Below, one piece after another: positions 3,088 through 43,933 of a stretch of 64,000 nt of DNA. Location of the stretch: the NCBI GenBank assembly GCA_964527765.1, contig CAZGQR010000010.1:1680-65679 (forward strand). Direction: 5' to 3'. The DNA comes from an uncultured Planctomycetia bacterium (GTDB lineage Bacteria; Omnitrophota; Gorgyraeia; Tantalellales; Tantalellaceae). Under the pieces are notes generated by a model. It was not told where the DNA came from. It saw only the letters and a program-made list of their open reading frames with translations, and did not search any database. Numbering within the stretch: position 1 is the first letter of the stretch; each line of letters begins with the position of its first letter. The position numbers and the translations under genes were made by a program.

Positions 3088-3164
3088 GATAGGAAAGGAG
3101 AACAAGCAGATTTAAAGGGTGCTTAACCCAAAAGAGATACAAAACCTTCCTGTATCTCTTAAAA

Positions 3165-3214
3165 ATGTCCTCGCTTTGGGTCCTCCAAGCAGCCCGGGGC
3201 GAGGGCATTTTTTT
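3165..3214 (+). terminator. Putative intrinsic terminator after the truncated giant ORF
   Basis: Stem CCTCGC(3169-3174)/GCGAGG(3199-3204) followed by T-run 3208-3214. An upstream perfect 9-bp hairpin AGAGATACA/TGTATCTCT lies at 3133-3159. The loop is long, so this is only moderate. Confidence 0.4.
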
Positions 3215-3408
3215 AACTATCTCCTTTGTTTATAAGTAGTTATCTAATATTTTTCATATTTACCAATATTTAACCAGATTACCCAGATATTAAGAGTTTA
3301 AAAACCATAAAATTTATCCGATTTTCTTAAAAAAATAGCAGAAAATATACGATTTTAATAGAAAAAAAGCATGTATGTTAAGTTATAAAAAATTTAGAAA
3401 ACCCACAA

Positions 3409-3439
3409 TTGACATTCTCCCCATGTATGTTATTATAAT
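3409..3439 (+). promoter_or_regulatory. Sigma70-like promoter candidate for the 29.7-kb gene, inside a 489-nt strongly AT-rich leader
   Basis: TTGACA at 3409-3414 and TATAAT at 3434-3439 with a 19-nt spacer, which is slightly long. An 11-mer CATGTATGTTA is directly repeated at 3370-3380 and 3422-3432, flanking the -35. Confidence 0.4.
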
Positions 3440-3576
3440 TATACTTAATAAATAAAACAAAAAGCCAGACACTATTATGTTTTATAGACCCGAAGGCGGA
3501 TCAGCATAAAACAGGCAGGGATTTTTGTTATCCGGGCAATTTTAATTATTTAATAAGTAGCATATCTGAAGGACAT

Positions 3577-6500
3577 ATGAGTAGAAATAAAGCATTCATA
3601 AAAATTGTTTCGTTGGTCGTAGCAGGCATATTCCTCCATCAGCAGGTCCTGTGGGCTGCGGGCGACACGGCAGGTCTCACCAGGACCGTATCCGGTAAGC
3701 ATGAGATCCCGTATGCCGATACCCGCGAGGACGTCCGTATTTCCGATGGGCTTGCCCAGCTGGACGGCACATACACGGGTGAGGCAAAAGACGTTATTAT
3801 CAATATCCAGGACTGCCATTCCTCGCTTTCCGCGCAATATTCGATCGTGGATATCCTGAGAAACCTTCTTCAGGATTATGACATGAAGGTCATTGCCATT
3901 GAAGGGGGATCGGGATATCTGGACACTTCTTTGCTTAAAACTTTCCCGGACAAGAGCATCAAGAAAAAAACCGCTGCTTACCTGATGAAAGAAGGGAAGA
4001 TATCGGCCGGGGAATTCTTTTCCGTGACCACGGATGAGGATATTGCCCTGTACGGCGTTGAGGACAACGCCCTTTACCGGGAGAATCTTGAGATCTTCAG
4101 GGATATTCACGCAAGAAACCATGACAATATCGCCGTACTTGATGTTATTCTGGGCGATCTCAAGGATACCGAAAGCAGAGTATATTCGCAGGAATTGAAC
4201 CGCATGGTGTACAAATCCCGGCTTCACCGTGAAAGCAAGATAAGCTTTGATGTCTATTGGGATTTCCTGGAGAAGATATGCGACCGGACAGGTATTTCTA
4301 CCGACGAATATGCAAGCATCGGGAATTTCAAGGATTCGGTTCACCTGGAAAAGAGCATCGATTTCGGCGAAGCTACCTCGGAAAGAAAAAAACTGATCAA
4401 TGAATTGATGGAAAGCGCGACGAAGGAAGACATGGAAGAGGTGGTCACCAGATCGCTCTCCTTCGAAAAAGGCAAGATCGACCAGTCGGAGTATCACAGC
4501 TGGCTCCTGAGGTTTGCCTTGAGAAGAGGCATGGAAACGGGCGGGTTTCCGGAGCTTTGCAAATTCGCTGCTTATGCCGAGAGTTATCGAAAACTTGATA
4601 TCATAGGCCTGCAGAACGATATTAATGAGCTTGAGGGTAAAGTTCTCGAAAAACTTTTTTCTTCCCGGGAAGAGAGACAGCTCTACAGGCTCGTCAGGAT
4701 GACAGAGCTCCTGAAATCCCTGTTCGAGATAAAACTGACCGGCGAAGACATATCCTATCTGACGGCGAACATTGATGCCATAGACGCGGATGAGTATATC
4801 CGTTTTGCCGGAAGCGGGGAAGATGATACTTTGAATGACGCTGTTTGCCGCGCCCGCAAAAGCATGAAAGAGATCATTTTCGAGGCGAAAAGGGCCCTGA
4901 GGTTCTATGATCTGGCCGAGGAACGCAACCACGCGATGATAGCAAATACCGTTTCCGCGATGAGACGGGAAGATAAACACATTGCCGCCCTCATATCAGG
5001 CGGACATCATTCCGGAGGCCTTACGCGTATCATGAAAGAAAAAGGCCTCTCTTACCTTGTTCTCATGCCGAAGTTTTTCAATGACCGGTCCCGCCCCTAC
5101 GTGGCAGTCCTTACAAGAAAGTCAGGTCCCTACAGGAGGCTTGTTTCTTCGGGTGCTTACGACCTGGCCCTGGAAGCTTATTTTGACACGGGTGATCTCG
5201 GTAAGTTCAAAACAATGATGGCTTTTGCCGTCGGCCAGGCGGCCCTGGAGGGAAAAGATGTCCCGTCCGAGATAAAAAGCTGGATCGACTCTTACAGAAT
5301 GTGTTATGACAGTCTCTCGGCGGCAAGACGCGCGGCTATGGACTCGGAACCGGTAAGCCCCGAGGATCTGAAACAGCGCCTGCAACAGATCAGGGTGGTT
5401 GCTGAGGACGGACAGTCATGCAAGGTCCTGATAGGCGGCAGCGCTTACCGCGTGACCCCCGAGGGCGCAGAGGCAATATCCTCGGAAGAAACAGGTCCAG
5501 GCCTGCGCGGCGCGATGTTATCCGCTATCCAGCGTATATTTCTTCTGAAGGAAGGAATGGCAAAAAAGGCGTTGGGTCAAAAAAACGAGCCGCCCGATCT
5601 TACGGCCGGCCCTGATGCCATGAATCTGGGTTCGATCAATTCTTATGACAAGAAAACCCACAGGGACCTGCGCACCCGCCTGGAATACTCAAAGCAGGTT
5701 CAGATATGGGGCACGGGGATAAAAGATATAAGGTTCAGCAGGAAATACAGGTCAAAACTGATGAAAATAGATCCCAATCTGCCCAACGATCTTCACATCA
5801 TACTCATGGAGCATAAAAGAGCTCCCCCGGGTTCGGTAGAGGAAAGATTTCTTTTCTTTGATCCCAGGACAAAAAGATGGGTATTCTCCCATTCAGGCAC
5901 CAGGAGCCGGACCGGCAAGTTCGCCTATCTAACCAGGAAAGCCTTTGATGACCTGTATCAGACCGATAAGGGCAGGAAATTCCTGAAAAAATTAATGTGG
6001 AACGAGTACAGGCAGGCCACGGCAAAGCTGGAAGGCAGATGGACTGAAGATTATGACAAAGAGAAGACCTCTTCCCTGCGCGCTTTTGTAGAGGAATATC
6101 TTCGCGGTGTTGCACTTCAGACGGCAAAACCATCCGAACATCCTCAGGTGATCGTATCCGCTGATCCGAATAGATCCTTAAGAGAACATGTTTCAGAACT
6201 GCTTAACGTTGAGTCCGCAGAGATCCCGACCGGCAGGTTTCCGGACGGGGAGATAAAAGTGGTGGTAAAGGATCCGGAAGAGATAAAAGACAAAAACTGC
6301 ATGGTCGTGCAGGATATCAACAGCGACGAGGATTTCGTGAGTCTTCTGCTGATCATAGCGGGACTGAGGGACGCGGGAGCGAAAAAAGTCTCCTGCGTGC
6401 TGCCCGAGAAAATGCTGGAAAACAGTATTCTCCTGGATACGGTTTCATCGTTCGTGGATATTTACACCGCTGACAATTTCAAGTATCCTGCCTCATTCAC

Positions 6501-9500
6501 TCCGTACAGGCCGGAGAGGCCGGAGCCGGCCGGGCGCAGGAAGGCAAAAAAGAGCGAAAAAACCTATCTTCTTTTCACGAGAGACTACCGGAAACTCAAG
6601 CAGAAAGTTGCCGGCGGGCTGGTGAAAGCCGGGACCAAGCGCGACATGGAGATCAGCCACGTGAAGGCAAAAACGCTCGAAGAAGGCAGGGCCTCGGTCA
6701 GGATATCCCGGGATACGGAAGGCAAAAACTGCCTCCTGATACATAACACCAGGACCGCCAAGGGGCTGGTGGAATTGCTGATCATCCTGGAAAAGCTGAA
6801 AAGACAGGGCGCGGGCGAAATAGAGTGCCTTATATATTTCCTGGGATATGACCGCCAGCACGAGAATTATAACGTGAAAGAACACGGAGAGAACGCTTTC
6901 AGCGCGAACAGCGCCAAGTTTATCCTGGAGCTCATAAATCAGTACTGCGAGAGGATCTATACCGTAAACACCCATTTTATAAAAGAACCGAGCAGAGAAC
7001 CATACGGTTTTCCGGGGATCGAGGGCCTTGAGATAGTCAACTTGAGCGCTTTCGAGCATCTGGCCAGGTACTACAAGGAAAAGTACGGCCTTGAAAAGGC
7101 GGAACTTATCGGAGGCGATGACGGGGTTGCCGCTTTTCTCAAACCGGTAGCAGAAAAAATGGGCTGGGGGCTGCATTACCCCATAAAGAAAAGGATCTCC
7201 GTTGAAGAAGTCAGGTTCTCGATACCGGACGAATGGAAGCTTCCCGAGAACGGTGGCAAGGGAGCGTTGAAGGGGAAGGACGTGGTTCTTCTTGATGATG
7301 TGGTCGCCGGCGGCTCGACGCTGGTCAAGCTTGCCATCAAGCTCAAGAACGATTTCGGGGTGAAAAGAGTATTCGCGGGGACCGTGCACGGGAAACAGTC
7401 CAACAAGAAGCTGGCTTACTTTAGATCGCTGAAAGATGACCTGGGCCGCCCCGTGTTCGATGATATCATCGCGACGGATACGGTCGTATCCCCGACCAGC
7501 AAGGTCTCCATAGCCGAACTGATCGTTGAATTTCTGGAAGAAAGCCGCGGGATCGAGGAAACCGGACGCGGGGAAGACACCCGGCTGTTTTCTTTTCTGC
7601 CCCTGGCATTCCTGCCTTTTGCGCCGCTGGTACCGGGATTGGGCATCTTTACGCTCATGGCCACGGTCTTGCTTGCTGTTCTCTTTGCCGGAAAAAGCGA
7701 AAGAGTCGACATGTCCCCGGAAGATGCAGCATTACTCGGAGAGATAAGCAAAGAACTGGACAGATGCAGGGACAGCAGATTTGAGCGCACGCTGAACGTG
7801 CAAACTTACAACAAGGTAAAGTACCTTTCCTCCAAAGTCACGGGAGCAGATGACATTCTGCAAAGATTCGAGCGTTATTTTATCCTGACATCGCTTGTAT
7901 GCGCCCTGGATCCCGAAAAGATCCTTCTTACCCCTTTAAAGGAACACAGGGAATTTGTTGCCCTGTTCGTTATGGGATTCAACAAGGGAGAAAAAGAACC
8001 CTATTTTATTACCGCTCCTACCGATTTCAGCGCGGAAGTATGCCATACGGATCTCAAATGGGACAGGGAAATGAGCGTGCTCGGCCTTGTCCACTTCCCG
8101 AGGATGCCGATACCTGATTCCGCCGTTCCCGGAGATTACGTGGTTTTTTCGGGAGAGGAACTGCTGGGCAAAGTAAGCAGCACGAACAGTTATCTGCGCG
8201 GAACTCTGGCAAAAGGTGTTTTGTCGCGGGAAGGCTTCCTGCGGCTGGATCCCCCGGCGAATGAAGAAGAATTCCTGATGAGGAAGCTGGGCGATGCATA
8301 TTCGGATTCCGCACCGGAAAAAACCTATCATGAGCTTCTTATGGGAGAATATGTCAGCACGGTCGCTTTCCTGCTGGGGGAAAGCCAGGAGGAAGGCATC
8401 AATCCGGACAAGAAATTCTTTCTTTTTGATCCGGTAAAGGATATTTTCAGGGATAACGGGATACCTTTGCCCAAGGAGCTGACACTGGGCAGTTTCATGG
8501 AAGCGGTCAAGGGAAAGAAATTTAAATATATCAGGACCGAAGGCCTGCCCCGATATGCATTTTCACCCGGTAACATAAAAACCAAGATCAAAAGCAGGAG
8601 GGATGTTTGCGTTTCCGCCGCAAAGATGATAGCTGAGGAGATCAGAAAAAAGCCGGGTCTTGTGCTTGCCTTGCCGGCGGGCCGCACCCCCGGGGAACTT
8701 TATGAAGAACTGGTAAGGCTGCACGGGGAAGGATTGGACTTTTCGAACGTGAAGATCTTTAATCTGGATGAGTACGCGGGTCTGGGCAGTGAAGACAAGG
8801 GCAGTTTTTACCAGTACATGTGGGAAAAATTTTTGAGCAAGGTGAACGTCAGGGAAGAAAATGTAAGATTATTCAACGGGAAGGCCGAAGATCTTGAAGC
8901 CGAGTGCAAGTCCATGGAAGAGGATATTGAAAATGCCGGCGGTATTGATATCTGTCTTCTGGGCATCGGTGAGAACGGTCATATCGCCTTTAATGAGCCG
9001 GGGTCCAGTTTCTCGTCCGGGACAAGGGTCGTGGAGCTTCATCCTTCCACCGTGGAAAAAAGCAGATGCAAGGCGGGCAAAGCTCTTACCCTGGGCCTGG
9101 ACAACATAATGTCCAGCAGGAAGATAATACTGATGGCCTGGGGGACGTTCAAAACATCGGCGGTCAAAGGTGTATTTTATGGCCCCGCCTCCGAGAGCGT
9201 ACCGGCATCGGTATTAAAACAGCATCGGGATGTCACGTTTTTTCTGGACAAAGAAGCCGCTTTTTCAATAAAAAAAGAAGACCGGAAGAAGTTATCGGGC
9301 CTGAGCCCTCCAGCGGCCGATCAAACCGTTCCGTCCAAGGAGTCACCCGAAGACCGCGGAGACACTTTCCCTAAAAACATTTATTCTTTTCTTCCCCTCG
9401 CGCTTTTGCCGTTCGTGCCGGTTGTGCCGGGCCTGAGCATTTTTATGCTGGCCGGTATGATCCTGTTTGCCTTTTTCGCTTTCTCCGGAACGAGCCCGAA

Positions 9501-12500
9501 AGAAAATAAGGAAAATGTCCTGGTCGAATTCAAATGCAGCAAGGCATATAAAGGCGACGGTGAGGGCGGTATCATTTACGGGGAACGCCGGATAAGCAAG
9601 ACGCTCGATCGCCTGCTGAGCCCAAAAGAGCGTTCTATCTTTGACGGAATTGTAACGGATCTTCTGTATAATCCGAATATTGAGCGGATCGTGCTGAAAG
9701 AGAATGCCGGTTTCATTGCCGACCTGCAAAAAAATGAAAACGGATGGATCATGGAAATCGACAGGTCCGCCCTTCAGCATCCTCTCCTGGCGCAGTATTC
9801 GCGGGAACACGAGGAATACCTTTCTCATATTGACATAGATGCGGACGAAAGTCTGATCACCGAGATATACGGCCAAAGCTACACGCAGGAACAGAAGAAG
9901 ACGCTGGAGACATTGATGCGGGAGACCATGGCCTGGCTGTTTTCGCTTACCAGGCAGAGCAAGGATCCGGATTACCTGGCCTACCTGAAAGGGTCCTCTC
10001 ATCCCGCTCTTGAGGATTACGCGGAGCTGTTGGAGAAAGCCGGGGCAGTCAATGTCAGGGAGGAAAAAAGCGGAAGAACAGTAAGGCTGGTACTGGATCA
10101 TATTCTCGGCGCTTCCGGGAAAGATAATGTAAAAAAACTCTGCGCACACCTGAGGTCCGACGAGGATAACCTGAAACTTTTCTGCACCGTCATGCGGGAC
10201 GTCTTTAACGCCACGGAGTTCAATATCGCTTTATGCATGAATATGCCGCATTACAACGAGATAAGGGAAAAGGTCTATGAAAGCGGGACCGCGGAATTTA
10301 AAGCCATCCCGCTTTTAAAAGTGAGCGACACTCGAAGTAAGCCCGCCGACGAAATAATAGCCGGGCTTTTACTGCTTTTGCCGGAACTGAAAGATGACAG
10401 CATTTTCCCGGTCGTGCAGCAGGCCATGAACCTGATGAATCCTGATTGCCGGGAGTTTATCAGAGAACTGCTCACGCAGGCAAAAACGGTGAGACGTCTT
10501 GCGGCGGGTAAGGGCCCGGCGTACAGGAAGGCGTGCTGCCGGATGCGCTGGTACACGGAGACATTTCTCAGGCTCACACTGATCGTTTTGAGCCGCACCT
10601 ACAAAGACAGGCAAAAACGCGAAGACTCGCTTAAGAACCTTTTTGAGCTGAAAGTAGCCGTGGAAAAAGTGCTTGAAGACGAGAGACTGCCGGGTGAAGA
10701 GGAAGTAACGCTTGAAAAAGAAGATATGGACGTGCTTCGCAACCTTCTTCTGATCCTTGATTTGCAGGCGGGGTGCCTGTATCTTACCCTGAACGAACCG
10801 GAGAAGGCGATCGCGGTCATGGAACCATGTTTGAAAGAAGAACTGGCGGCACCGGACAGACATTCATTCATGGTGTTTATCGCCAAAGGTTATGCCGCGC
10901 TGGAGGATTTTGAGAAGGCGATCGACTACTGCAAGGGCGCGCTGGATATTTATGAGGAGATATCGAATGAAGAAGCCAAAGACCTGTACATGGAAATAGG
11001 CACGTATTACATGGAACAGGAAAAGTTTAATGAGGCAAAAAAGGCCCTTTTAAAAGCGCTGGAACTTGCCGGCGAGTCAGGTGAAATCATTTTTCACGAA
11101 CCGAAGCATTTTACCGGGAAGGACAATTATACCAGGACCACCCTGGGAACGATCTATAATCTTCTGGCTTCCTGTTTCACGCATGAAAACAAAGGTGCCG
11201 AGAGCATGCATTATATCAATAAGGCGGTTTGTTATGCTCCGGGTGAACCCGTACACAGCCGGACATTCCTGCGATTCCTTCTTTTTTACAGTGAGGTCGA
11301 CAGCGTCATGGAAGGCCTGATCAGCCAGGTCAAGCACCACCTGAAGATCGCCCCGAAAGACAGCGCTTTGTACGATATGGTTTTGAGGGGATGCCAAGGT
11401 AAACCTTCGATCTTACGGTCCGTACTGGAAATATTGCTTAATGATGAGACGGTAAGACGCGCGGATGCCCGTCCTTACGTGGTCCAGGAGAAGTTGTCCG
11501 ATGCATTTCACGGACTTTATGGCAACGGAGAAGATAAAAAATACAGGACAGAAGCGATCGGTGTCATCCGCCGCATACTGAGGACCAACAGGAAAAAGAC
11601 CGTTCAGAAAAACGCCAATGCGCTGCTGGAACGGCTTGGCGTGGGCCCCGGGGTCTATGTTTTTATTGATGCGGCCGGGAAGATCCCGTCTTTAATAAGA
11701 AAAGATTCACCCAGGAAGAAATTCCGCCCCCAGAAAGAGGTGGCTCCGCTCGTGGATATGCTTGACAAGATCGTCCCCGAGGATCTGGGGCTTCAGGAAC
11801 GCCGGGACATAATAACGTGCCTCGAGAAGATCATTAATAACGAAAGTCTCAGGAAACGGTCGGAAAGTAAAGAATATTGGGGAGAGCTGCTGAAAAGAGC
11901 GGAAACAAGGATCACGGATATGCTCGAAGGAATAGATACCCGGGATCTGAGCGCCAAGGCATGCCGGGATATGTCAGATTTCCTCGAGGATATCGTCAAT
12001 AACGAAAAGACGCAGGAACTGGTAGAAAAGTCGGGTAACAAGCATTTGGAAACGTTTTTGTACGCCGCAAGGACGAAATTAAAGGAATTCGGATTTCAAG
12101 GGCACGTTGCCGAGTATGCCCAGCGCTGGCCCGGCATTCCCCGTGAAATCGTTTCTTTGGTTTTAAACGGGGTTCTGATCAGAGAGGCCACGCTTACCTC
12201 GAAATGGGCGAGGAAGCTTATCAGAAAAGAATTGACCGCCGGGGCCTTGAAGATCAAGCTTGGGCGGCTGGAAAACGTTCTGAGGGAGCTTAATGGCCGG
12301 ACATCCAGCGAGATATCCTCCCTTGTCGCGTCGGATCCGGACAGGGTCAGAAACGGACAGGAACTGGACGAAAAAGTGATCGATGCTTTATTTGTTGCGT
12401 TTAAGCGGTTTCTTGAGGAAAAGGGCCGAAGGTGGATCCCCGAGACGGGCGCATGGAAGGATACCGATTCGGTCAAGAGCATAGTTAAACGATATCTGTT

Positions 12501-15500
12501 CGAGGAAAAGAACGTCGGCGCCGCCATGAGCGGAATTTTTAACCTGATAGCGGAATGGCTGATCGAGAAGGACAAACGGTACGGCAGGACCGACCGCGAA
12601 AAACTGGTAAAGGCGATATCGCAGGTAAGAGGACGTATCAGCGCCTCAGATCTGGAAGATACGCTTTTTCATTATTTCGATGGGGAATCAAGGGAAGCTG
12701 TTTCAGGGGAATTACCGGTCCAATCCGCGGCAGAAGAGGCGGAAGAACTTCAGCTGGAAGTGGACATCCGGGAGATCCCGCTGTTCGCCGCCTTATCGCA
12801 AGACCGGCAGGAAGAGATCCTCGGGTCCGAAACCCACAGAGAAAGGCTGGAGAAACTGGTAGAGGTTTTGAGCGCCGGATACGAGGGGTCTTCCGCTGAT
12901 GTCAAGGCGGAAATATGTAAATGGATCCCGGTAATTTATATTTCCCAGTTCCAGCCGGCCCTGAATGAATTTGCCGGCATGAGAGCGATCTCGGACGTGA
13001 TCGAAGAAGTTGCGATCAGGGATGGATATGGATGGATAGAGGGCGTGGAAGCGAATATTATCAAGAAGCGAAAGGGAGAACCCGTCAGGAAGGACGAGGA
13101 TGATATAGGGAAGGAGCTGACCAGGGATCTGGTCATGGTTATTATTGAGAGCTGGATAACGGGAAATTTTACCGAAGAGGAGTTGCGGGAGGACTGGAAC
13201 GAGCTGCTCTATGAAGCAAAGGATGAGGTTGAGGAGGCGTTGAGGAGCGGAGACACGGAGAAAGCGAAAAAAATAGTCACGGATGCAGCTGTCTATTCAG
13301 AAATCCAGGAAAAAGAACCAGGACCACAACCGGCAGGACCAGAACTTCCATCTGCGGAACCGGAATTGCTGCAGGCTGAACCGAAGTCCCTGCGACGGAT
13401 AGAACCCCCGAAGGAACATCCGCGGGAAGTTATAGCTGCGGACAGCCGGAAAGAGCTGATAGAACAGACCGTGAGCGATTATCTTGAAAGATATCCCGGG
13501 TGGGAAAAGGTCTTTCGTCTCAGCATATCGGATGTTGTCGCCAGGATAATAAACGGAAAAGACCTTACTTGGCGCAGGGATATGGACGAAAAACAGATAA
13601 TATCCCGGATGGCACGTAAGTTCATCGGGAACTATTTCAGGGAAAAAGGCGCCGAGTATGTCTTTGAATGCGAGTACTGGGACATGCTTCGCCACGATCA
13701 CGAAGAGGCCATAGCTCTGCTTGAAGAGACTTTAACCGCGGATGAACCGGTTGCCGCTCTGGAAAAAGCAATGCTTATCAGGGTCGCGCCCGTGTATCTT
13801 TCACGGTTTCAGCCGGCGCTGAATGAACTTGTGGGGGGAGAAGATGTCTTGTCCGGGCTTGTCGGAAATGTTGTTGAGAAAGTATATGAGCCGGAGAAGG
13901 GTAGCGCTCCCCGCGAAGATGCGGGAGGGGCCCTTATCCGGGATCTGATCATTCTTGTCGTTATCGAATATGTAAAGGAAAATTTCTCCCGGGAAAAACT
14001 GCAAAGCAACTGGCAAGAAAATATCTTTGCCGCGAGAGAAGATATCGAAAGCAGCCTACTGTACGGTTATGAGCAGATCACCAGAGAAGTGATTTCAAAA
14101 GCAGTCGATGTTCCGACGGACGTCGGCGGGCCGGGGAATATCTATTCTTTTATGCTTCTAGCGTTCTTGCCGTTCACGGGTATTGTGCCGGGGTTGAGCG
14201 TTTTGATGCTGTTAACTACGCTTCTTTTCGTCCTTTTCGCCCCGGGCTTTGAGTTCAGGCAAAAAGAATATGACAGCAGATATGCCGAGAGGCCCCTGCG
14301 CTTCGCTCTTTACAGGAAAAATACAGGAGAACGGGCGGCTGCGGTGAGGATTTTCTTTAAAAATACTGCGGGAGGGCACGGCGTCCTGTTTATAGATTAC
14401 CTGACGGCCCGCAGCCTGGAAGATGCTTTGGCGATAATGTTCGCTTTGCTATGGGGCAGGGAAGCCGTAAAGCGCGTCGCTTTCGGACGCGTGTTCATAA
14501 AAGGGATCAAAAAGAAAGAAGTCATCGACTATTTTAAAAAGAAAAAGCTGTTGGGTGCATGGAAGATACCGCCGATGTCCTTCGACCGGCTGATGCGATC
14601 AGGATTGAGCGGCGCAAGCAATACGGTGCCTTCGTCAAAGGTATACTCGGTCAATAGATTTCACCACTGGTTCAAGATAAGAAAAGCCGGGGAAGCGGCC
14701 CTGAAAAGGCTTAAAAAAGGTCGTATCAGATGGGCTGAAGCCACGAAAGCGGCGAAACGCTATTTAGTAAAACTTCTTGCCAAGGAACTCGGGAAAAGGC
14801 CGGGCGAGTTAAATACGCAGGATTTCGGGAAAAGGTCTAAAGTGTTCGGCAACAGGTCCTTAAGCGGTCTTTTGAGGTCATATGTCGGGCCGGCCAGACC
14901 TTCCGGTAAAGGTGCTCATATCAAAGGGCTCAAGGCGCTGAAAAAAGATCTGGGGATAAAAGACGTTCTCGCACGGATCATTACAGAGAAAACTATCCTG
15001 AAAAGATTTAAAAGGGGATATGTTACGTGGTCAAACACCACGAAGAAAGCCAGGATCTATCTTGTAGAACTTGCCGTCAGAGAACTCGGCAAAAAACCGG
15101 GCGAACTGACCACTAGTGATTTCGGCAAACCGTTCAAAGTGCTCGGAGGTAAATACCTGAGCGGGCTTTTGGAATTCTACCAGAGGGTAAATAAATTTTC
15201 CGGCGAAGAGGGCGCGGGCGCCAAGGCCCTTAAGGCGCTGAAGCAGGACCTGGGTATAAGAGACATTGCCGTCGAGATCATTACGGAGAAAACAGTCCTG
15301 CAAAAGCTCAGATGGGGCCGGATCGACTGGACAAAAACCACAAGGAAGGCAAGGCGCCATCTCGTTGAAGTTCTTGCCAGGAAGTGCAGAAAAAAGCCGG
15401 TAGAGCTGCGCCAGGAGGATTTCAAGAAAACCTCAAGAACATTCGGTGATAAAAATTTGATCGGCCTTCTGGAGTTTTATGTCAGGAAAAAATCCATTAC

Positions 15501-18500
15501 CGGTAAAAATTCTTATGGTAAAGCCCTCAAGATATTAAAGAATGAGCTGGGGATAAGAGAAGAGCCGGGAGAGGTTACGGAGAAAACGATTCTGGAAAGG
15601 TTCAGGCGAGGCAATATTAAGTGGGCGGATGCCACGAAAAAGGCAAGGAGACATCTTGTAAAGATCCTGGCCGGAGAAGTCGGCAAAAAACCTGCAGGCT
15701 TGCTCGTTTCGGATTTCGGCAAAGAAATCGGAACATTCGGCAATAAACGTCTGGTCGGCCTTTTGGAATTTTACATGAGGGCCGATAATCTTTCAGGCGA
15801 AGGCTCTACAGTGGAAGCTCTCCGGGCCCTGAAGGCGGATCTTGGTATAAAAGATTTTACAGGTTTTAAGGCGCCAGGGCCAGCAGTATTCGCGATCGGG
15901 GCATTTATCGCGGCGTTTTTCGGCAAGCCCGCGCTTTTGTCCGCGACGGAAACATACAGCTTAAGTAGGCTTGCGCTGTCCGGCTTTGCAGCCCATCCCA
16001 TGCTTGCTCCGCCATACTGGGGATTTTTATTGCCCCTTCTGTTGGTTTTCCCCGCTCTTATCTCATTTCTTAATTATATAAAGCCCGCGCCCGAAAGCGG
16101 CAGTTTACCTTGCAGAATCTATTCTTTTCTTAAAGCGCGATCTGAGACCACGGACCGGTTCTTTGGCGCAGAGAAGATCCAGAAAAATATAGAAGGCAGG
16201 AGGCCGTCTCTTAAGGATATAAAATATGTTTTGGGAATACTGGTCGATCTCGGCCTTGTCGAACTGAGAACAAAATGGCACGATGAAGTATATAGATGCA
16301 AAAATCCGCGCTTAAGCCCCGATAAGCACAGAGCCATAGAGAACGTTCTGAATAACCTCGGCGAAAAATTCGCTCCGGAAGAAAAAGAACAGGCGCGGAA
16401 GGAACTTGAAAGGAACGATGTATATACAGATACCGGTAAAGGGTACAAATTTTCCGCGCATAATATAACCGATGATTCTATAAAAGCATTGCAGTTCTCC
16501 AGCGAGAATCTCGGGGAGTTTACCCGGATCTTGGACGATTTTGTTGAGCCGCCAGGCGCTAAGCTCAGCACCGGAAGGCGGCGGGAACTGAAGCAGAATC
16601 TGGAGGATGTTTTACCCTGCGTTGAAAAGATCAAATCGCTATTGAGAGGACTGGGAAAAAGGCAAAGGAAGAACCCGGATGTAATCTGGATCGCTCACGA
16701 TATACATCTCATGGCCATAGATTGTTGCGAGTCTCTCGGGGCAATAATCGGGAACCTGTCCCCGGAAGGAAAAGATAAACAGGGAGAGGGACAGTACGTT
16801 AAGGCAAAAGCCGTTCTCGCAAAACTCCGCTTGATCGACGTCAGAGACTTGAGTAGCGATATAATCCTGGCGAAGGCGGGCTCTCCGCTGAAACGGAAGA
16901 GGCCCGTTCCCGCTGCAAAAGAGGTCGTAGAGGAGATCGAAGAGTCAGACGACGATGACAGTTTACCGGGCGAGGACAGCAGTTTATCGCGGAAGACCGC
17001 TGGATCTGAAGCCCCCGCAGCCACATTTCCAGAGGAAACCGTTGGGTCCGGGGAGGAAGCCGCTAATGAACCGGACAAGGTTCCGGAAATCTCTCAGGAT
17101 GAGTCACCGTCTCAAAAGTTATTAAAGGCCTATAGGGAAATATTAAGAGAGGGTCATAAGCCCACATTAAAGGAACTTGCCGGGAAGCTCAGAGTAAGCG
17201 CTGAAGAGGCGAAAGATGTGCTCGCGCAGGTGAATCTTGAGCTGGGGAAAGCCGGCATGCGGCATCTTACGGTTGAACCGGACGTAAGGCGCGATCTGGC
17301 GGGTCTCCGGGCGGAAGATCCAGACAGGATGCTGCAGGAATACATAAGAAGGGGCAAGGTTATTGAATATGTGAGAGATGAAAGTACCGGGAAATGGCTG
17401 GCGTACCGGTTGAAGTATATTGCAGGCCGGAGCTGGAGGGTGAGAGGAACATCAGAAGAAAGGATCCCGGTCCCGGGACGCGATCTGGACAAAAAGCAGA
17501 ACCGGACACTTAATAGCGTGCTCAGAAATCAGTTCAAAAAACTGAAACTTTCCGATGATAAGATGCCTTCCTTCTGCGTGATGCTCGGCAAGACGGTCAT
17601 AGGATGGGGCGGAGGAATAGAGAAATGCAATATTCTTCATACCGGTTACAGGAGGAAGAGGATATGGATCGGGGAGCATCTATTCAACGATTTCTTGCGG
17701 CCTAAATCCAGCCAGCGCGCGGCAGCCCTGGAAGAAGAATTAAAACATATTAAGGACAGGGATCATGCGGATTCTCATGATGCCGGATACAAGAAGCTTC
17801 TGGCGCGCGTGCTGGAACATGCCAGGAAACTGGATGAACTGGCCAGGGCCCTGACCATGGAAAAACTGAGGTTCGTTAAAGATCATGTCGCCGGATGGGC
17901 ATTTCGTTCTTCGATCAAGACTCACGTGGAATGCGGGAATTTTAAAGAAGCGCTGGAACTTGCGAGGATACTGGAAAGAGTGACCGGTGATTACCACGCC
18001 AAAGAGATCATCGAGAAGATCAAGTCTTTTATTGACTGGAAAAAGACGAAGGAGCCGGAATTAAGGGCCGCAAGAAGCGAAAGACAAAAAGGTAAAGGCA
18101 AGTTGTCCAAGGCAGAACTAAGGGCATTAGACTCAAATGTCAGGAAGCTGGAAGGTCAGAAGAGAAGGATCGAAAAGGCAAAAAGAAACCTGGATCCATT
18201 ATTCAACGGATTGAGGCAATGGATGCCCAGATATATAGATAAGTCGTATTTCGGGGAACTTGGCGCGGCGGATACAGGTACGGTAACAGCGCTGTCTCTT
18301 CTGAGCATGCCGGTCTTGACGCTGCTCTCCGTTTCAGATGAGATCCAGGGGCTGGTGATCGTGCTTGTGGTGCTGACACTGATAGCTACCAGTACGGGAA
18401 TATTGGTCTATCGTGCGATTAAGTGGGCTATCCGGGGCATGACGGGGCAACCGCAGCGTCAGGGTACGCTGAAAAGCTTATCGGAAAGCGCCCCGGAAGA

Positions 18501-21500
18501 CATGCCGGAAAAGACATCGGAAAGCACGGCAAGCATGCTCGCCGATGAAATATTTTCCATGTATCCGGAGGGGTTTGCCAAAAGCCATGTCGGAAGGGTA
18601 ATAAGGATCGCGGATCTTCTGGTCCGCGAATTGGGCCTGTTAAAAAAACGCGCCGTTAAGGTGAAGATCCTCGCGGCAACACACGATTTCGGGTCACCGG
18701 TAAAACCCGCAAATAAAGAGATGGCCGACAGAGTACGGAGGATATTATTGCATAAAGGCGTAAATATTCCTAAAAGAAAATCAAGAGATCTGGCTGAATA
18801 TGAGCGCTTGCGCACATTATTCAAGGTGAGAAAAGACGAATTTGATCCCAGAGAGATCGAGATCGCCCTTGATGCATTCCAGGCCCCGCACACTTTGCGC
18901 GCTCTTACGGAAACGGGGTTCAGATTTTCAAGTTTTGTCAGGGTAATAATACTTTTTCACCATCACCTTAGAGAGCTGGAAGCTTTCATGGATAGCCAGG
19001 GCTGGCCAGAGGAGGAAAAAGAAGAAATACGCCTGATCGCTTCGGTCCTCGTCGCGGCGGATGTCGTAGAGAACGGCATGAACCTGTTCAAAAGGATTTA
19101 TTTCAAAGGTGCCGACAGAGCGGAGACCTCGCAGGAAACACTGGATTTTCTGAAGGAAAAGAGCGGCATAATGAAACGCGAGGTCATTGGCGCGTATCAA
19201 GCCCTGATAGACCGCAATGACCGGGAATTGGCATCGATAGCGAAAGATGCCAGCGTTTTTACTCCGCAGGAAGAGGAAGCCCTGGAACAGGCCGGCCTTT
19301 TCCCGCAGGCTCAGCGGCGGGCGCCGCCAGAACATTCTTTCAGAGCGGTCTCCGGTTTCCGGGCGAGCATTTTGATGCTCACCGTGGCCCTTCTTGGCAT
19401 GTTCGGCGGCGTGCTTCAGCATATTATACAGGGCGATATCACGGCTATAACATTTTTTGCGGTAGCCGCTTTCTTATATTTCAGTATTGCAGCAATAAGA
19501 TATTTTCTACTTGGATCAGAGACACGCCAGGCCTTGATCAAGGAAGGTGTTTCTCCCAAAGAGGCTAGCAGGCGGTACATTGCCAGGTCCGGAGGGTACC
19601 GACATCCTGCCTTTAGCGAAAACGAATTTCCGTTCTGGTGTCAGCGTCTTGTAAATATACATGAATCCTACCAGAGCCATTTCTGGGGCATGGTCTTTAT
19701 CATGCCGCTTTTTTATAAGATCACACATCTTGGAAAGAGGGGCGCTCTTTTGAAAAGGGAGAGAGAGCTTCTGATGCAGAGCAGTTTCGCCTATCTGGCA
19801 GAGACCTTGAGAGGTCTGAGGGGACAGGAGAAACCCAGGCCCGGCAAGGACCCCTGGAGGAGTACTAGTATAAGTGGCGCTCCGCGGCTGTGCAAGAGAT
19901 GGAACTCCGAACGTCCCAGGGATGCGGATCAGAAAAAAGCCAGGAGAAGAAAGGACAGAGCCGCCAAAGGAACAAAGGTCATAGCCAGAAGGGGATGGAA
20001 ATTCAAATCAGAAATGAAACACGGCCTTTTTCCGTCACAGGTAGAAGCGGAGATAATGGAAAACGTGGGCCAGAGCGTTCTGGACAAGGCGTATTACCAG
20101 GATGCATTTGGCATGTTGAGCAACCTGCCCGGCGAGAAACTTTTATGGACCAATGAAATATCGGCAGACAAGAACAAGAATCTGCATTTTCACCTGTTTA
20201 AGCTGGGGAACCCCTTACCGATCGAAGAATATGAGCTTGAACCATTGTGCAGGGACCGGGATGATGAGAGCGTGATATTCAAGGTGCGCGGATATCCGGA
20301 AGAGAATAATCCTATTGCCGTATTTGCGGTTAAAGGGCGCCTGGACAGTCCGCACAACAGGAGCCTGGTAAGCGCAAGGTGCTGTAACATAGAGGAGATC
20401 ATAAGGAATAACGGTTATACCGTGGATAAGGTTATTACTGCGGGAAAAGAAAAAGAGGTAACAGTTTTCTTTTTTCCCAGAAGGAGGGGGTACGCGCAGT
20501 TCTTTTCAGAAGGGGAACTGGAATTGGTCGGCCCCCTGGCGATGAGCGGAATATGGACCCTTCCGGGCCGTAAGGAATACAAGGATTTCGGTCTTGATAA
20601 TATTCAGGATGTTTTTTCAAAAGTGGGAGTTGTTCGCGAGAAAGGCGAGAGACTCGAGCAAATGTGCAGCGAAATAGAGAGGAATTTCCACGAGACGGAG
20701 GGCACGGGCCTGCTTCCGCCGAGCGTGTACTTCAGGGTTCTGGATTTTGATATGAAGGAAAAGGAAGAACACCCGGAAAAATTGCAGATCGTGGGCGTAG
20801 ATGAAATAGTGAAAAAGGGCGCAGAGGAAGGAATGCCTGTAAAACTTTTGGACGTGTCTGAAACACAGAAAAAGATAGTGGATATCCTGTCCGAGAAAGG
20901 CGTGAGAAGGATAAATTTTGTTCCCGATCTGTCCGATGAAGGCCTTGAAAGCATGGAAAACTGGGGTTCGATCGTAGGTCTTCTTGAATATGCCAAAAGA
21001 AAAGGCATGACCACGGTTCTTTCTCTTCAGGATTTCGTGGCCAGGAGCAGGAAACTTGAGGAGAATCTGCCTTCCATATATCTGGCTGTTCTGCCGTTCG
21101 TGGATAAGATCTCTTTTGAAGTAAACAGCAAGAACGGCCACTTTGAAAAAATGCTGGAACAGATCAAAAGATATTGTTCGACCAAGACCATTGAGATCTA
21201 TACATATGTTACGACCCAGAACCAGTACGAGATAATCGCTTTGGGCGAATTATTCCAGGAGAAACTGTCCGACGTAAAAGAATTTGAATGGGAAGTAATA
21301 CGCGATCCCGAATCGGAGTCGGCGATAAACGAAAAAGATTACGAGAGTTTGACCGCCCAGATGCGCGTGAGATACCCCAATTCCCGCGATCAAAAAACCA
21401 GCATGAAGATCAATTATGTCCTGTTCGGAAGAGAGGCGTCGAGCCTGTATGTGTCCGGCAACGGAAGCCTGGGTACAATGGAAAAAGGCGAGATACGCGC

Positions 21501-24500
21501 ATTTGCCGATCTTCGGGATCAAAACATGCTTGAGACCAAAAATGTCCGGGACAAATTCAGGATTATAATCGACAGGGTACGCGAACTATCCACTTATATC
21601 CCCAGAGAACTTCCTGCAGCGGCCCGTGAACGCGTACACGGAGGCCTCATAAAGGACATAATGAAGATGTACCCGAGGCTCGGACTATCCGATCTTGTTT
21701 CTCACGTTCACAGGGAAATAGAACTTGCGGAGGAGATAGCCGGAAGGATGGGGCTATCGGAAGAGAAAGTGCTTACCCTGAAACTTGCGATACTCGTGCA
21801 CCATCTGGGCCATCGTTCCAGGGTAGGCGAATACAGGGATGAGTATATTAAGATCAGGTCCGCAATGCGGGAAAAGTACCCCGGCGATAAGAGTAAATTA
21901 TGGCATATCCAGGATGCGGTCAGGGATCTATTGGAAGAAAAAAATGTTAAGAACGTTCCGAGAAATATGAGATTCGGAATTTTTTGCAAAGCGATAGGCG
22001 GACTATTAAAGGAAAAGGGGCTTAACAGTAAAGACCATCTTAATGAAACACAGGCGATGATAGTCCGGTCGATATTCAATATGAGGGAATACGCGCTGAA
22101 TGTATTTGAGGGTCTCGATACAAGTCTTTCGGATAAAGCGAGCGAAGATATGAAAGCGTTATTTGAAACCGTTCCGGAAAGCGTAAAGAGGGACGTGAGA
22201 ATGCTGCTCAAGTATTACGGCAGGTACCGGGAGTTCAGAGAGGAACTCCGGGAGGACGAAGGGCTCATCCGCATGGAATCGTCCATTTCTCCTGAAAAAA
22301 TGAAGCAGCTTATTTCGATAATCAGAATATCAAGCACATTTACCAACAGGCTGGACAGGACGGTCCGGGCGGAACTGCGAAGGGAATTAACTGATTCACT
22401 CTCCGAGGCGATAGAATTCATCATTAAGGATATCGAGCTGGAAAAAGAAGAAGGCGAGGAAACCCTGGAGGCCGTCAGTGAGCTGCTTAACGTGCTTAAG
22501 GACTTCGGGAGGGATCCGCGTATTTTGGGCGAGCTGAATAATCTGCTTGACGAGAAGGGCGGGCAACTGAGGTATAAAAACAGCATGTTCTTGAGATATC
22601 TGAACTCCGACGTTGATCTGGCACCGGATAACTGCAAGGGGGTAATAAGAAATTATCATGATTATGAGGAGGGTATTACCATAGGAACATATTACAGGTG
22701 GTCTACATCATGCCTTCGGGCCGGTGTTTTTGCCGGGGTCATGGCCGTAATCACGGGTTATGGTCCGGTGGTATTTCCCGGCGTTTTAGTTGTTCCTTTG
22801 GCTTTGTGCAGCGTTTTATTGCTTTTCTCGAGTTTATGGTTTTTCCTGATAGCGGAAAGGTGCAAGGAAGCCTACGAGGTGGGGTTCGTCGGGAGATGGC
22901 ATGAAATGCTTATTGATGGCCTGGCAATCAGCGCGTATCGACCCGATGAGATCGTTCAGGCGGCGAAGGAACTCGTTGATAAAAATCCTGAAGATGGAAA
23001 GAACAAGGCGGACATATTTCTTGAACAAATGGCCGATCTGACGGGCGAAAAGGTATTGCTGTTCAAAGAACGCCGGATAGCGGAGCTGATCCATAAAGGC
23101 TTGCTTGAAGACGCGGAAAAAGAAGGCAGGGGAGGAGAGTATCTTAAACTGGCGGGAAAATTGTTGAGATGGAAATACCCCGATGACGAAATCAAAGTGA
23201 GGATCAAAGAGCATGTGCAAACGAAAAAGGACCCGAATGAACTGTGGGATATATATGAATTTCTCAGCCTGCATATCACTGAAAAGATCTTCTCGGATGT
23301 CCTGTTCAGGCTGATGACCGTAAAGGTCCTTGATGAACCAAATACCGAATTAGAGAGCCTGGAAAAGGCAGCCAGAGATGAACTTGAGAAACGGCTCAAA
23401 ACAGAATATGCGGAAGCTTATGCCGAAATAAGAAAGTCATTATGGGGCAGGGGTAATGTCAGTAAAAAGAAGATCCATAAGTTTATATCCGAGTATCGCA
23501 AGCGCAGTGAAGCAAGACCGTACAGGGTTTTGAGAAGAAAAGAAAGATATGCGATTTTTCTTGAAGCAGCGGCTGAAAAGATGGGTAAAATTGAGCTGAG
23601 CGACATTGAAAAAGACATAGCCCGGGCGATATTCAAAGGACGTGAATGCACAAAGAAGGACTTTGAGAGAATGGCCTCCCGTCGGATACATAAACAGGCG
23701 TCGGAGCGCGTCATAGCCAGGCGGCGCCCGCATTTCGGCATTCTTGAGATCACGGATTATAACGCGTTTTCCATGTTGCCAACTGTGGTTAAAAAAATAA
23801 TAGAATTGCAGGATCTATATGAAAATCAGGACAAATGCATGCTCTGTTCATCTTTTCCATGTTACCGCTATTATACCAGTGAAAGGTCAGTGGCAAAATG
23901 CCTGAACGAAAGACTTATTGATGACATGCCGATGGCCAGAAAAGAGACCCTCAGGTTCGATAGGAGCAGGAAAGAACAGTTTGAGCTTAAAGGAGACACA
24001 TGGGAATGGAAGGAAGGGGACGGAATAGCGCTTGTAGGGGATATAAGCAAGGATCTGAAAGATGCTATCGGCGAATTACAGGAAGAGCTGAAAAAGAAAT
24101 TCAGCACCGGGAGATTGCAATTAACACCAAAAGATGAGCTCCATTTTACCGTAGCTATAATCAGGGATAATACCGCAGGCCCCGTTAAAGATACGGAAGA
24201 AAAGGAAAGAAAGGCCCTTATAGAAAAAACAAGGAATATCGTGATAAAGGCCCTGGCCGAAAGAAAAGTCGGTTTAAAGGTGAGTTTCAGCCTGAAACAT
24301 GTTGTTCTTAATAATAATGCCGATATCATTCTCATCGGCGAAGTGAGCAATCCCCTGCTGAACTATGTAAGGACCAGCATGAGGGAGGATCTGGATGCGG
24401 TCAAAAAAGATATAATTCACGTGACGATAGGAAGGATATTCGACAGGGACATAGAAGGAGATGAGGTGGGAATACTGACGAATATAATAAAACGGCACGG

Positions 24501-43030: not shown

Positions 43031-43069
43031 AAACGCGATATGTAATACTGGAAGGAGCTTGCGCGGGTC

Positions 43070-43921: not shown

Positions 43922-43933
43922 AGAAAGGAAACC

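What the first reader, a model, noticed from the sequence alone, without database searches (positions are those of the whole stretch)
7585..16150. A recurring proline-kinked transmembrane-hairpin 'linker cassette' punctuates the giant protein
The ~36-residue hydrophobic motif (N)IYSF(L/M)(P)LA(F/L)LPF.P.VPGL(S/G)(I/V)F.L is present at 7585-7695, 9376-9492 and 14146-14255, with a partial copy at ~16110. Each copy lies between enzymatic modules, and copies 2 and 3 are also similar at the nucleotide level. The central P-x-VPG is a helix-breaking turn, so each copy would form a re-entrant hairpin that keeps the flanking domains on the same side. Additional hydrophobic clusters at ~15870-16100, ~18260-18430, ~19360-19520 and ~22715-22870 would stitch the protein repeatedly into the membrane. 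This looks like a mechanism for arraying soluble enzyme domains along a membrane surface.
Basis: seen in the sequence. Interest (0 to 1): 0.7.

Follow-up and report, generated by a model that had tools for sequence, protein, structure and literature searches.

The report
Triplicated proline-kinked membrane anchor in giant protein
A 9,895-residue multi-enzyme protein from an uncultured Omnitrophota bacterium carries three related copies of a ~37-residue, charge-free, proline-kinked hydrophobic segment that most likely pins successive enzyme modules to the cell membrane. This is a real but lineage-private detail of a protein class already known to be full of membrane segments.

Summary
Three in-frame, homologous hydrophobic cassettes lie at nt 7585-7692, 9376-9498 and 14140-14250 of a 9,895-aa ORF (3577-33264, +). 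They share the invariant pattern SF..LA.LPF...VPGL. Pairwise alignment scores are z=10-13 above composition-matched shuffles. The four other hydrophobic clusters exist but are unrelated in sequence. The "partial copy" is only the pentapeptide IYSFL.

The cassettes lie outside folded domains: copy 1 starts 14 aa after a complete PRPP-synthetase fold, and copy 2 about 35-40 aa after a complete NagB fold. Conservation acts on the protein, not the DNA. The duplications are old, with copies 2 and 3 the youngest pair.

The same-side helix-break-helix reading is the best-supported one but is not proven. In its favour are three consecutive, asymmetrically conserved copies with no transmembrane segment between them, the double length of every internal hydrophobic element, and a central Val-Pro-Gly. 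Against it, only the second arm scores as transmembrane-competent on one scale, the AlphaFold models are low-confidence, and a signal-peptide-like N-terminus leaves the sidedness unresolved.

No copy was found elsewhere, but the protein libraries appear not to hold very long proteins. Giant Omnitrophota multi-enzyme proteins with many transmembrane helices are already described, so interest is modest.

The parts
3577..33264 (+). Giant ORF of 9,895 aa, a multi-enzyme protein. Recognised modules are PRPP synthetase, NagB, TPR, LigT-like, ARMT1-like, DUF4922, a viperin-like radical SAM domain and HD.
   Evidence: The same 9,895-aa gene is called on an independently assembled Logan contig. The start ATG has a GAAGGA Shine-Dalgarno sequence.
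3604..3663 (+). N-terminal signal-peptide-like or anchor hydrophobic segment (aa 10-29), preceded by MSRNKAFIK.
6139..7542 (+). PRPP-synthetase module. An extra N-half domain lies at aa 855-943 and the complete enzyme at aa 1020-1322. It ends 14 aa before cassette 1.
   Evidence: TIGR01251 scores 145.9 bits against a cut-off of 113. The alignment to PDB 1u9y runs to its last residue, and the RFPDGE and DDVVAGGST motifs are present.
7585..7692 (+). Cassette copy 1 (aa 1337-1372).
   Evidence: (D2).
8530..9276 (+). Glucosamine-6-phosphate deaminase (NagB) module, aa ~1652-1900, complete fold.
   Evidence: E=1e-52 to B. subtilis NagB (2bkv, residues 11-238 of 242). The NLDEY and GHIAFNEP motifs are retained. 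TIGR00502 scores 209 bits.
9376..9498 (+). Cassette copy 2 (charge-free run aa 1934-1974, core 1935-1970).
   Evidence: AlphaFold predicts a helix at aa 1953-1970 with pLDDT 73-81.
14140..14250 (+). Cassette copy 3 (aa 3522-3558).
   Evidence: AlphaFold predicts a helix, a TGIVPG break, then a helix.
15880..16080 (+). Hydrophobic doublet h4 (aa 4102-4168), unrelated in sequence to the cassette.
16117..16131 (+). Isolated IYSFL pentapeptide (aa 4181-4185). It may be a relic of a fourth cassette and is not itself a hydrophobic element.
   Evidence: (D8).
18274..18411 (+). Hydrophobic doublet h5 (aa 4900-4945).
19363..19503 (+). Hydrophobic doublet h6 (aa 5263-5309).
22720..22854 (+). Hydrophobic double-length element h7 (aa 6382-6426), with a central GPVVFPG.

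Best explanation
The three cassettes are old paralogous copies of a ~37-residue membrane-anchor module inside a giant multi-enzyme protein of a Candidatus Omnitrophota bacterium. Each copy has three parts: a proline-punctuated hydrophobic arm (SF..LA.LPF), an invariant V-P-G-L break, and a generic, strongly hydrophobic helix. I infer that it enters the cytoplasmic membrane as a helix-break-helix, either a tight hairpin or a re-entrant wedge. Both flanks would then stay on the same face, and the preceding enzyme module (PRPP synthetase, NagB) would be tethered to the membrane without any large domain having to be translocated. The four downstream hydrophobic doublets would do the same job with unrelated sequences.

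Shown: homology of the copies, protein-level selection, position in linkers, and hydrophobic character.
Inferred: membrane insertion and same-side topology.
Unresolved: which side of the membrane.
For: 1. The copies are homologous and discrete. Pairwise z=10-13, while the flanks are unrelated (z<=2.3).
2. Selection acts on the protein. Identity by codon position is 2nd 79-85%, 1st 55-67%, 3rd 42-64%. Synonymous codon identity is at chance level for c1-c2 and c1-c3.
3. The protein is 15.7% K+R and 15.6% D+E. Every charge-free run of 19 aa or more is one of the eight hydrophobic elements. Every internal one is double length (36-45 aa) or a doublet. The only single-length one is the N-terminal segment.
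4. The cassettes lie in linkers just after complete enzyme folds.
5. The asymmetry argument. Arm a plus the turn is 63-74% identical between copies, and arm b only 24-41%. No transmembrane-like segment lies between c1 and c2 or between c2 and c3. If each cassette were single-pass, consecutive copies would have to insert in alternating orientations, placing the conserved arm on opposite faces. An even-crossing topology lets all three copies adopt one orientation.
6. The PRPP-synthetase and NagB modules on either side of c1 both keep their catalytic motifs and use cytoplasmic phosphorylated substrates (enzymology from established knowledge).
7. K/R counts are symmetric on the two flanks (2-4 per 15 aa) and zero in the cores.
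8. The AlphaFold model of c3 gives helix (aa 3520-3533), a break at TGIVPG, then helix (3540-3554).
9. Branched-residue-Pro and Ser-Pro breaks enforce re-entrant topology in PglC and caveolin (PMC6133551).
Against: - Arm a sums to +3.1 to +6.2 kcal/mol on the Hessa 2005 scale because of its 2-4 prolines, so it would not insert alone. The Wimley-White octanol scale gives the opposite answer, -10 to -11.5. Both sets of scale values were recalled from memory.
- AlphaFold confidence is low (mean pLDDT 46-52, three-row alignment). For c2 only arm b is a clear helix.
- Arms of ~14-18 residues are short for two full membrane spans.
- The N-terminal segment looks like a signal peptide or an N-in anchor. 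If all seven internal elements are even-crossing, the whole protein, including the radical SAM domain, would be predicted outside the cytoplasm, which is biochemically implausible.
- No orthologue could be examined, so conservation across species is unknown.
- The helical-face clustering of invariant residues in arm a is only suggestive (p~0.07).
Confidence: 0.55

Rival explanations
1. Each cassette is a single-pass transmembrane helix (arm b) preceded by a conserved proline-rich juxtamembrane motif (arm a) that stays at the interface. The polypeptide would therefore switch sides at every cassette.
For: - Only arm b is insertion-competent on the Hessa scale: -0.3 to -1.9 against +3.1 to +6.2 kcal/mol for arm a.
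- AlphaFold gives one confident helix for c2.
- The parity works out. A signal-like N-terminus, three single passes and four hairpins would place the NagB module and the whole C-terminal part (HD, ARMT1, radical SAM) in the cytoplasm (inference).
Against: - The PRPP-synthetase module, which has intact motifs, would lie outside the cytoplasm.
- Homologous, asymmetrically conserved cassettes would have to insert in alternating orientations.
- Highly charged segments of 1,300 and 1,550 aa would have to be translocated.
- The K/R distribution on the two flanks is symmetric.
Confidence: 0.27
2. The cassettes are internal sorting or processing signals. A signature motif (…VPG(L)(S/G)) sits directly before a transmembrane helix that is followed by charged residues, as in PGF-CTERM, GlyGly-CTERM or PEP-CTERM signals or in rhomboid substrates. 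A membrane protease or transpeptidase would cut the giant polyprotein into separate membrane-attached pieces at these sites.
For: - The three-part layout and the strong conservation of the motif, in contrast to the variable helix.
- The literature speculates that giant Omnitrophota proteins are cleaved but knows no cleavage sites (10.1101/2023.11.21.568195).
Against: - No NCBIfam or Pfam sorting-signal model matches, even at E<=10.
- The elements are internal, not C-terminal.
- The residues after the helix are mixed acidic and basic, not a basic cluster.
- No sortase, exosortase, rhombosortase or rhomboid gene lies in the 64-kb window.
- Three consecutive signals would need alternating topology.
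Confidence: 0.06
3. The segments are not in the membrane. They would be buried hydrophobic cores, or association surfaces between soluble domains.
For: None directly, other than that arm a is proline-rich and not a canonical helix.
Against: - These are runs of 36-43 residues without a single charge, in a protein that is 31% charged. Mean Kyte-Doolittle hydropathy is up to 2.5 over 17-19-residue windows.
- They lie outside the complete PRPP-synthetase and NagB folds, behind low-complexity linkers.
Confidence: 0.03
4. The repeats are selfish DNA inserted in frame, like Rickettsia palindromic elements, and are conserved as DNA rather than as protein.
For: The repeat is short (~100 nt) and discrete, with unrelated flanks.
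Against: - Third codon positions are the least conserved and second positions the most.
- Synonymous sites are at chance level for c1 against c2 and c3.
- There is no excess secondary structure: z = +0.7, -0.9 and -0.2.
- No further copies occur on either strand of the window.
Confidence: 0.01

Closest known systems
Omnitrophota giant 'multi-enzyme metabolic cluster' and membrane-anchored long proteins (bioRxiv 10.64898/2026.06.07.730766; West-Roberts et al. 2023, 10.1101/2023.11.21.568195)
   Same: - Omnitrophota origin (SmpB 87% identical to Omnitrophota MAG proteins).
- Many unrelated enzyme Pfams tiled along one polypeptide, including radical SAM, sugar-phosphate enzymes and TPR.
- A signal-like N-terminus plus ~15 putative transmembrane segments. 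The reported median is 16 for proteins of 10 kAA or more.
- Neighbouring long ORFs with PPDK-like and PGM/PMM domains.
- The same unresolved paradox of cytoplasmic-type enzymes in regions predicted to be external.
   Different: - At 9,895 aa it falls just under those papers' 10-kAA cut-off.
- No SecA-DEAD, C39 or dockerin domain was detected.
- Neither paper's text mentions 'hairpin' at all, and the passages I read describe no sequence-conserved repeated membrane cassette or pairing of hydrophobic segments (text searches, not a full reading).
Re-entrant membrane helix of monotopic proteins (PglC Ser-Pro; caveolin-1 Ile-Pro) (PMC6133551)
   Same: - A hydrophobic segment of ~30-37 residues broken by a conserved (Ser or branched residue)-Pro motif, proposed to enter and leave on one face.
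- A basic residue directly upstream in c1 (R1336) and near c2 (K1933).
   Different: - The PglC helix is N-terminal and packs against its own globular domain. Here the element is internal, repeated three times and flanked by long linkers.
- The cassette has up to four prolines plus a glycine.
- Its topology is untested.
Transmembrane helical hairpins with tight turns (for example M13 procoat-type YidC/Sec substrates). Poly-Leu model segments of ~40 residues form hairpins when Pro or Gly is placed centrally (von Heijne laboratory work, recalled from memory).
   Same: A double-length hydrophobic stretch with central turn-promoting Pro and Gly. A marginal first helix could be helped into the membrane by a strong neighbour.
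   Different: Arms of ~14-18 residues are at or below the length usually needed for two full spans.
C-terminal sorting signals (PGF-CTERM, GlyGly-CTERM, PEP-CTERM, LPXTG)
   Same: A short signature motif with Pro/Gly directly before a transmembrane helix that is followed by charged residues.
   Different: The cassettes are internal, no HMM matches them, they have no basic cluster, and no cognate enzyme was seen.

Membership tests
Omnitrophota giant multi-enzyme membrane-anchored proteins | Encoded in an Omnitrophota genome | tested here: met
   SmpB in the window has its best named hits in Candidatus Omnitrophota MAGs, at up to 87% identity. A relative contig is syntenic.
Omnitrophota giant multi-enzyme membrane-anchored proteins | Length of at least 10,000 aa (the catalogue threshold used in the 2026 preprint) | tested here: not met
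   9,895 aa, which is 1% below an arbitrary cut-off.
Omnitrophota giant multi-enzyme membrane-anchored proteins | Many distinct enzyme Pfams tile the polypeptide, with none dominating | tested here: met
   Pribosyltran_N/Pribosyltran, Glucosamine_iso, TPR, LigT_PEase, ARMT1-like, DUF4922, Radical_SAM and HD.
Omnitrophota giant multi-enzyme membrane-anchored proteins | Signal peptide and/or multiple transmembrane helices | tested here: met
   Hydropathy and charge-free-run analysis finds eight hydrophobic elements. DeepTMHMM itself could not be run.
Archaeovorin-type giant proteins (West-Roberts 2023) | Divergent SecA DEAD / preprotein-binding domains, and often C39 or S8 peptidase domains | tested here: not met
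   No such Pfam hit at E<=0.01 anywhere in the protein. Very divergent copies could be missed.
Re-entrant membrane helix (PglC/caveolin type) | Hydrophobic helix-break-helix with a conserved Ser-Pro or branched-residue-Pro at the break | tested here: inconclusive
   V-P-G-L is invariant in all three copies. AlphaFold shows a break there in c3 and no clear first helix in c2, both at low pLDDT.
Re-entrant membrane helix (PglC/caveolin type) | Both ends exposed on the same membrane face | not testable with these tools
   This needs reporter fusions or cysteine-accessibility mapping. Only indirect arguments are available.
Exosortase/archaeosortase/rhombosortase/sortase sorting signals | Located at the extreme C-terminus and matched by the family HMM | tested here: not met
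   The cassettes are internal (aa 1337, 1935 and 3522 of 9,895). No NCBIfam or Pfam sorting-signal hit at E<=10.
In-frame selfish palindromic repeats (RPE-like) | DNA-level conservation with palindromic or hairpin potential | tested here: not met
   The codon-position identity pattern is typical of protein-level selection. Folding z-scores are -0.9 to +0.7.

The most novel reading that the evidence does not exclude
The conserved arm (SF..LA.LPF...VPGL) is not just a lipid anchor. It would be a dedicated, portable signal read by membrane machinery. One possibility is a translocation-free hairpin-insertion signal (YidC-type) that lets a giant polypeptide be stitched to the membrane repeatedly. 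The other is a cleavage or sorting site that cuts the polyprotein into membrane-attached enzymes. In either case, double-length kinked elements that predictors count as one helix would be the 'overlooked transmembrane' behind the implausible extracellular placement of sugar-phosphate enzymes in published Omnitrophota giant-protein topologies.
Probability: 0.1. Interest if true: 0.7.

Novelty: new member of a known kind. Interest (0 to 1): 0.33.

Why it matters
Published surveys of Omnitrophota giant proteins count transmembrane helices with predictors and admit that the resulting inside/outside assignments are often implausible. Glycolytic and sugar-phosphate enzymes, for example, are called extracellular.

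This protein makes the problem concrete. Every internal hydrophobic element is double length, and three of them are a conserved proline-kinked cassette. Whether a predictor counts such an element as one crossing or two flips the predicted location of thousands of downstream residues. If the elements are same-side hairpins, the protein is a chain of enzymes tethered to one membrane face with no need to translocate huge domains.

The finding does not reveal a new kind of system. It offers a small, clean and experimentally tractable test case, a 37-residue element, for the topology problem in this protein class.

Tried and rejected
1. Search for the cassette elsewhere.
- A profile of the three copies against 1.84 billion representative proteins gave 0 hits.
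- Pattern plus tblastn scans were run on three collections. GTDB species genomes gave only a chance match to a transmembrane region of a 422-aa polytopic Exiguobacterium membrane protein. JGI metagenomes gave none. IMG/VR gave none.
- Caveat: the giant protein itself is not returned by either protein library, although the gene is on record on a Logan contig. These libraries therefore appear to lack very long proteins, and the DNA patterns used were strict.

2. Search for homologues of the surrounding protein.
- aa 1292-2008 hits only ordinary ~640-aa NagB enzymes.
- aa 3087-4200 hits nothing.
- DNA scans with the 717-aa query found nothing.

3. Known-family tests. Pfam and NCBIfam on the cassettes at E<=10 gave nothing meaningful.

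4. An extended duplication unit was rejected. The 200-300 aa on either side of the cassettes are unrelated.

5. The selfish-DNA or structured-RNA explanation was rejected.

6. PDB sequence searches of the dark segments aa 30-857 and 1975-3520 found nothing that would indicate which side they belong to.

7. Reaching the orthologous giant gene in a syntenic relative (ENA ERZ27256778 k141_1662528) failed.

8. Tandem Repeats Finder does not see the 4 x ~99-aa repeat, although repeat finder and BLASTP do.

Full report
**What is there**

The finding lies inside one ORF, 3577..33264 on the + strand, encoding 9,895 aa without an internal stop. The ORF is real coding sequence.
- In-frame Pfam and NCBIfam domains are spread along its length: PRPP synthetase at aa 855-1322, NagB at ~1652-1900, TPR at ~2396-2498, LigT-like near aa 6,820-6,870, ARMT1-like at ~8235-8476, DUF4922, a viperin-like radical SAM at ~8860-9095, and HD.
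- The start ATG is preceded by GAAGGA, and a TTGACA-16-TATTAT promoter-like site lies at 3409-3436.
- An independently assembled Logan contig carries a gene of the same 9,895-residue length upstream of an identical 2,800-aa neighbour.

The organism is a Candidatus Omnitrophota bacterium. The SmpB protein encoded in the window is up to 87% identical to SmpB from Omnitrophota MAGs, and a relative with 75%-identical SmpB shares the downstream gene order. The flanking ORFs are also long multi-enzyme proteins. The upstream frame is open from nt 1 to 3087 and has a PPDK-type PEP-utilizers_C domain. The downstream 2,800-aa ORF has PGM/PMM and PMI domains.

**Checking the observation**

All three cassettes are in frame at the stated coordinates.
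- They form a three-copy direct-repeat family of 104 nt at 63-70% identity (D2).
- An HMM of the three copies finds only these three in the six-frame translation of the window.
- Thirteen positions are invariant: SF..LA.LPF...VPGL....L....L.
- Against composition-preserving shuffles the pairwise scores are z=10.2-13.0, with 0 of 500 shuffles reaching them. The four other hydrophobic clusters are unrelated to the cassette and to each other (z<=2).
- The repeated unit is confined to the cassette. The 200-300 residues on each side show no similarity.
- The 'partial copy' is only IYSFL at aa 4181-4185, in a charged context 12 residues after the h4 doublet. IYSF[LM] occurs 3 times against 0.013 expected, so it may be a relic, but it is not a cassette.

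**Age and nature of the conservation**

Identity by codon position is highest at second positions (79-85%) and lowest at third positions (42-64%). At residues identical between copies, identical codons occur as follows:

| Pair | Identical codons | Expected from codon usage |
|---|---|---|
| c1-c2 | 6 | 6.2 |
| c1-c3 | 6 | 4.8 |
| c2-c3 | 13 | 7.1 |

The duplications are therefore old and maintained by selection on the peptide. c2 and c3 either separated later or were homogenised. The DNA has no excess folding potential. This rejects an RPE-like selfish-repeat explanation.

Conservation is strongly asymmetric. Arm a plus the turn (positions 1-19) is 63-74% identical between copies, and arm b (20-36) only 24-41%.

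**Are the cassettes membrane segments or domain cores?**

The protein is 15.7% K+R and 15.6% D+E. Every run of 19 residues or more without a charged residue is one of eight hydrophobic elements.

The cassettes lie outside known folds.
- The alignment to M. jannaschii PRPP synthetase (1u9y) runs to its last residue at about aa 1320, and TIGR01251 passes its curated cut-off (145.9 against 113 bits). c1 begins at 1337.
- The match to B. subtilis NagB (2bkv, E=1e-52) covers residues 11-238 of 242 and ends at about aa 1895. A low-complexity linker follows, then c2 at 1935.

The 'buried core of a soluble domain' alternative is therefore very unlikely.

**Hairpin or single span?**

This is the part I could not settle.

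For a same-side element:
1. All seven internal hydrophobic elements are double length (36-45 aa) or doublets. The only single-length one is the N-terminal segment.
2. The three cassettes are consecutive, with nothing transmembrane-like between them, and they are conserved asymmetrically. As single spans they would have to alternate orientation, putting the conserved arm on opposite faces. As even-crossing elements they can all sit the same way.
3. The PRPP-synthetase and NagB modules on either side of c1 retain their signature motifs (RFPDGE, DDVVAGGST; NLDEY, GHIAFNEP) and act on phosphorylated cytoplasmic metabolites.
4. K/R counts are symmetric on both flanks and absent from the cores.
5. 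The invariant Val-Pro-Gly matches the Ser-Pro or branched-residue-Pro breaks shown experimentally to enforce re-entrant topology in PglC and caveolin (PMC6133551).
6. AlphaFold on c3 gives helix, a TGIVPG break, then helix.
7. The invariant residues of arm a fall on one half of a helical wheel, but only at p~0.07.

Against a same-side element:
1. Arm a has 2-4 prolines and sums to +3.1 to +6.2 kcal/mol on the Hessa scale, against -0.3 to -1.9 for arm b. The Wimley-White octanol scale, which barely penalises proline, favours both arms. Both sets of scale values were recalled from memory.
2. AlphaFold confidence is low (mean pLDDT 46-52), and for c2 only arm b is a clear helix.
3. Predicted arms of ~14-18 residues are short for two full spans, which points to a re-entrant wedge rather than a true double span.
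4. The N-terminus (MSRNK, a 15-20-residue hydrophobic stretch, then …WAAG/D) looks like a signal peptide or an N-in anchor. With seven even-crossing elements, the entire protein, radical SAM domain included, would be outside the cytoplasm.

One odd-crossing element somewhere would fix the C-terminus. h4 is a candidate, because it has a third weak hydrophobic stretch. That solution would still leave PRPP synthetase and NagB outside. The 2,800-aa neighbour shows the same paradox: a signal-like N-terminus followed by PGM/PMM and PMI, with no other hydrophobic segment. Both published surveys note the same paradox.

**Comparison with what is known**

Giant Omnitrophota proteins with numerous transmembrane helices and tiled metabolic enzymes are described in two preprints.
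- 10.64898/2026.06.07.730766 reports that 94% carry a transmembrane helix or signal peptide, with a median of 16 helices at 10 kAA or more. [quoted passage not shown]

The present protein fits that class, although it is 105 residues under the 10-kAA threshold and lacks detectable SecA-DEAD, C39 or dockerin domains. In the passages and term searches I ran, neither paper describes a sequence-conserved, repeated membrane cassette or the double-length regularity. The general idea of arraying enzymes on a membrane is therefore not new. The cassette is a new, apparently private, detail.

**Distribution**

No copy was found in any collection searched:
- 1.84 billion representative proteins;
- GTDB species genomes, which gave only a chance hit in an Exiguobacterium polytopic membrane protein;
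- JGI metagenomes;
- IMG/VR.

Larger pieces of the protein found only ordinary NagB enzymes or nothing.

These negatives are weaker than they look. The giant protein itself is missing from the protein libraries, although its gene is on record. The DNA scans used near-exact 10-residue patterns. The one clearly syntenic relative contig could not be walked to its giant gene.

**Verdict**

The most likely reading, at about 55%, is a triplicated same-side helix-break-helix membrane anchor that tethers enzyme modules. A single-pass helix with a conserved juxtamembrane motif is the main rival, at about 27%. This is a new member of a known kind, of modest interest, with some value as a tractable test case for the topology problem in giant Omnitrophota proteins.

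Noticed in passing
window 14684-15854 (aa ~3703-4096 of the giant ORF): Four tandem copies of a ~99-aa unit (period 294-300 nt, ~50% aa identity) sit between cassette 3 and the h4 hydrophobic doublet. They have no Pfam match and no homologue in the protein library. Tandem Repeats Finder misses them, but the repeat finder and BLASTP see them.
   Followed up: partly
window 3577-33264, aa 5474-5907 vs 8628-9030; 4572-4752 vs 7079-7259; 3087-3238 vs 3375-3510: Several other ancient internal duplications of unannotated domains within the giant protein, at 26-46% identity.
   Followed up: no
window 1-3087 (+): The frame is open from the first base of the window, so this is the 3' end of another long ORF. 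It has a PPDK-type PEP-utilizers_C domain and no hydrophobic segment in its last 1,028 aa.
   Followed up: partly
window 33473-41875 (+): A 2,800-aa protein with a classical signal-peptide-like N-terminus (MIGDGFKKSLFFRIVNLFLVFTFSFYNISFA/V), PGM/PMM and PMI domains, and no other hydrophobic segment. It shows the same 'cytoplasmic-type enzyme behind an export signal' paradox.
   Followed up: partly
window ~30150-30860 (aa ~8860-9095 of the giant ORF): The best NCBIfam match of the radical SAM module is the prokaryotic viperin family (86 bits, below the 180-bit cut-off).
   Followed up: no
window 55172-64000; L008 10001-18685: tRNA-Leu, SmpB and a tmRNA (tag VPAYAGASPLVSALGY) are followed by a low-GC stretch (38-44% against ~50%) carrying a MerR-like gene and a type I restriction R subunit. 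In the syntenic relative, the region about 4 kb downstream of SmpB (after TrkH and a 250-aa gene) carries a sigma-70-like factor, many small ORFs and a PDDEXK/Cas4-like gene. Both look like integrated elements at the tmRNA locus.
   Followed up: no
window 42122-50782: A mannan-utilisation-like cluster sits downstream of the giant genes: two ABC permeases, two GH113 enzymes, two CBM27/mannanase-GBD proteins, a ROK kinase and a solute-binding protein. It is conserved in the relative.
   Followed up: no
protein libraries: The 9,895-aa protein is on record as a called gene on Logan contigs. Neither protein-search library returns it, even as a self-hit. Negative searches for giant-protein features in these libraries should therefore not be read as absence.
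   Followed up: partly
window ~21085-21114 (aa 5837-5846): SIYLAVLPFV resembles cassette arm a (IYSFLPLALLPFV) with four residues missing. It lies inside a duplicated soluble domain and is probably chance.
   Followed up: no
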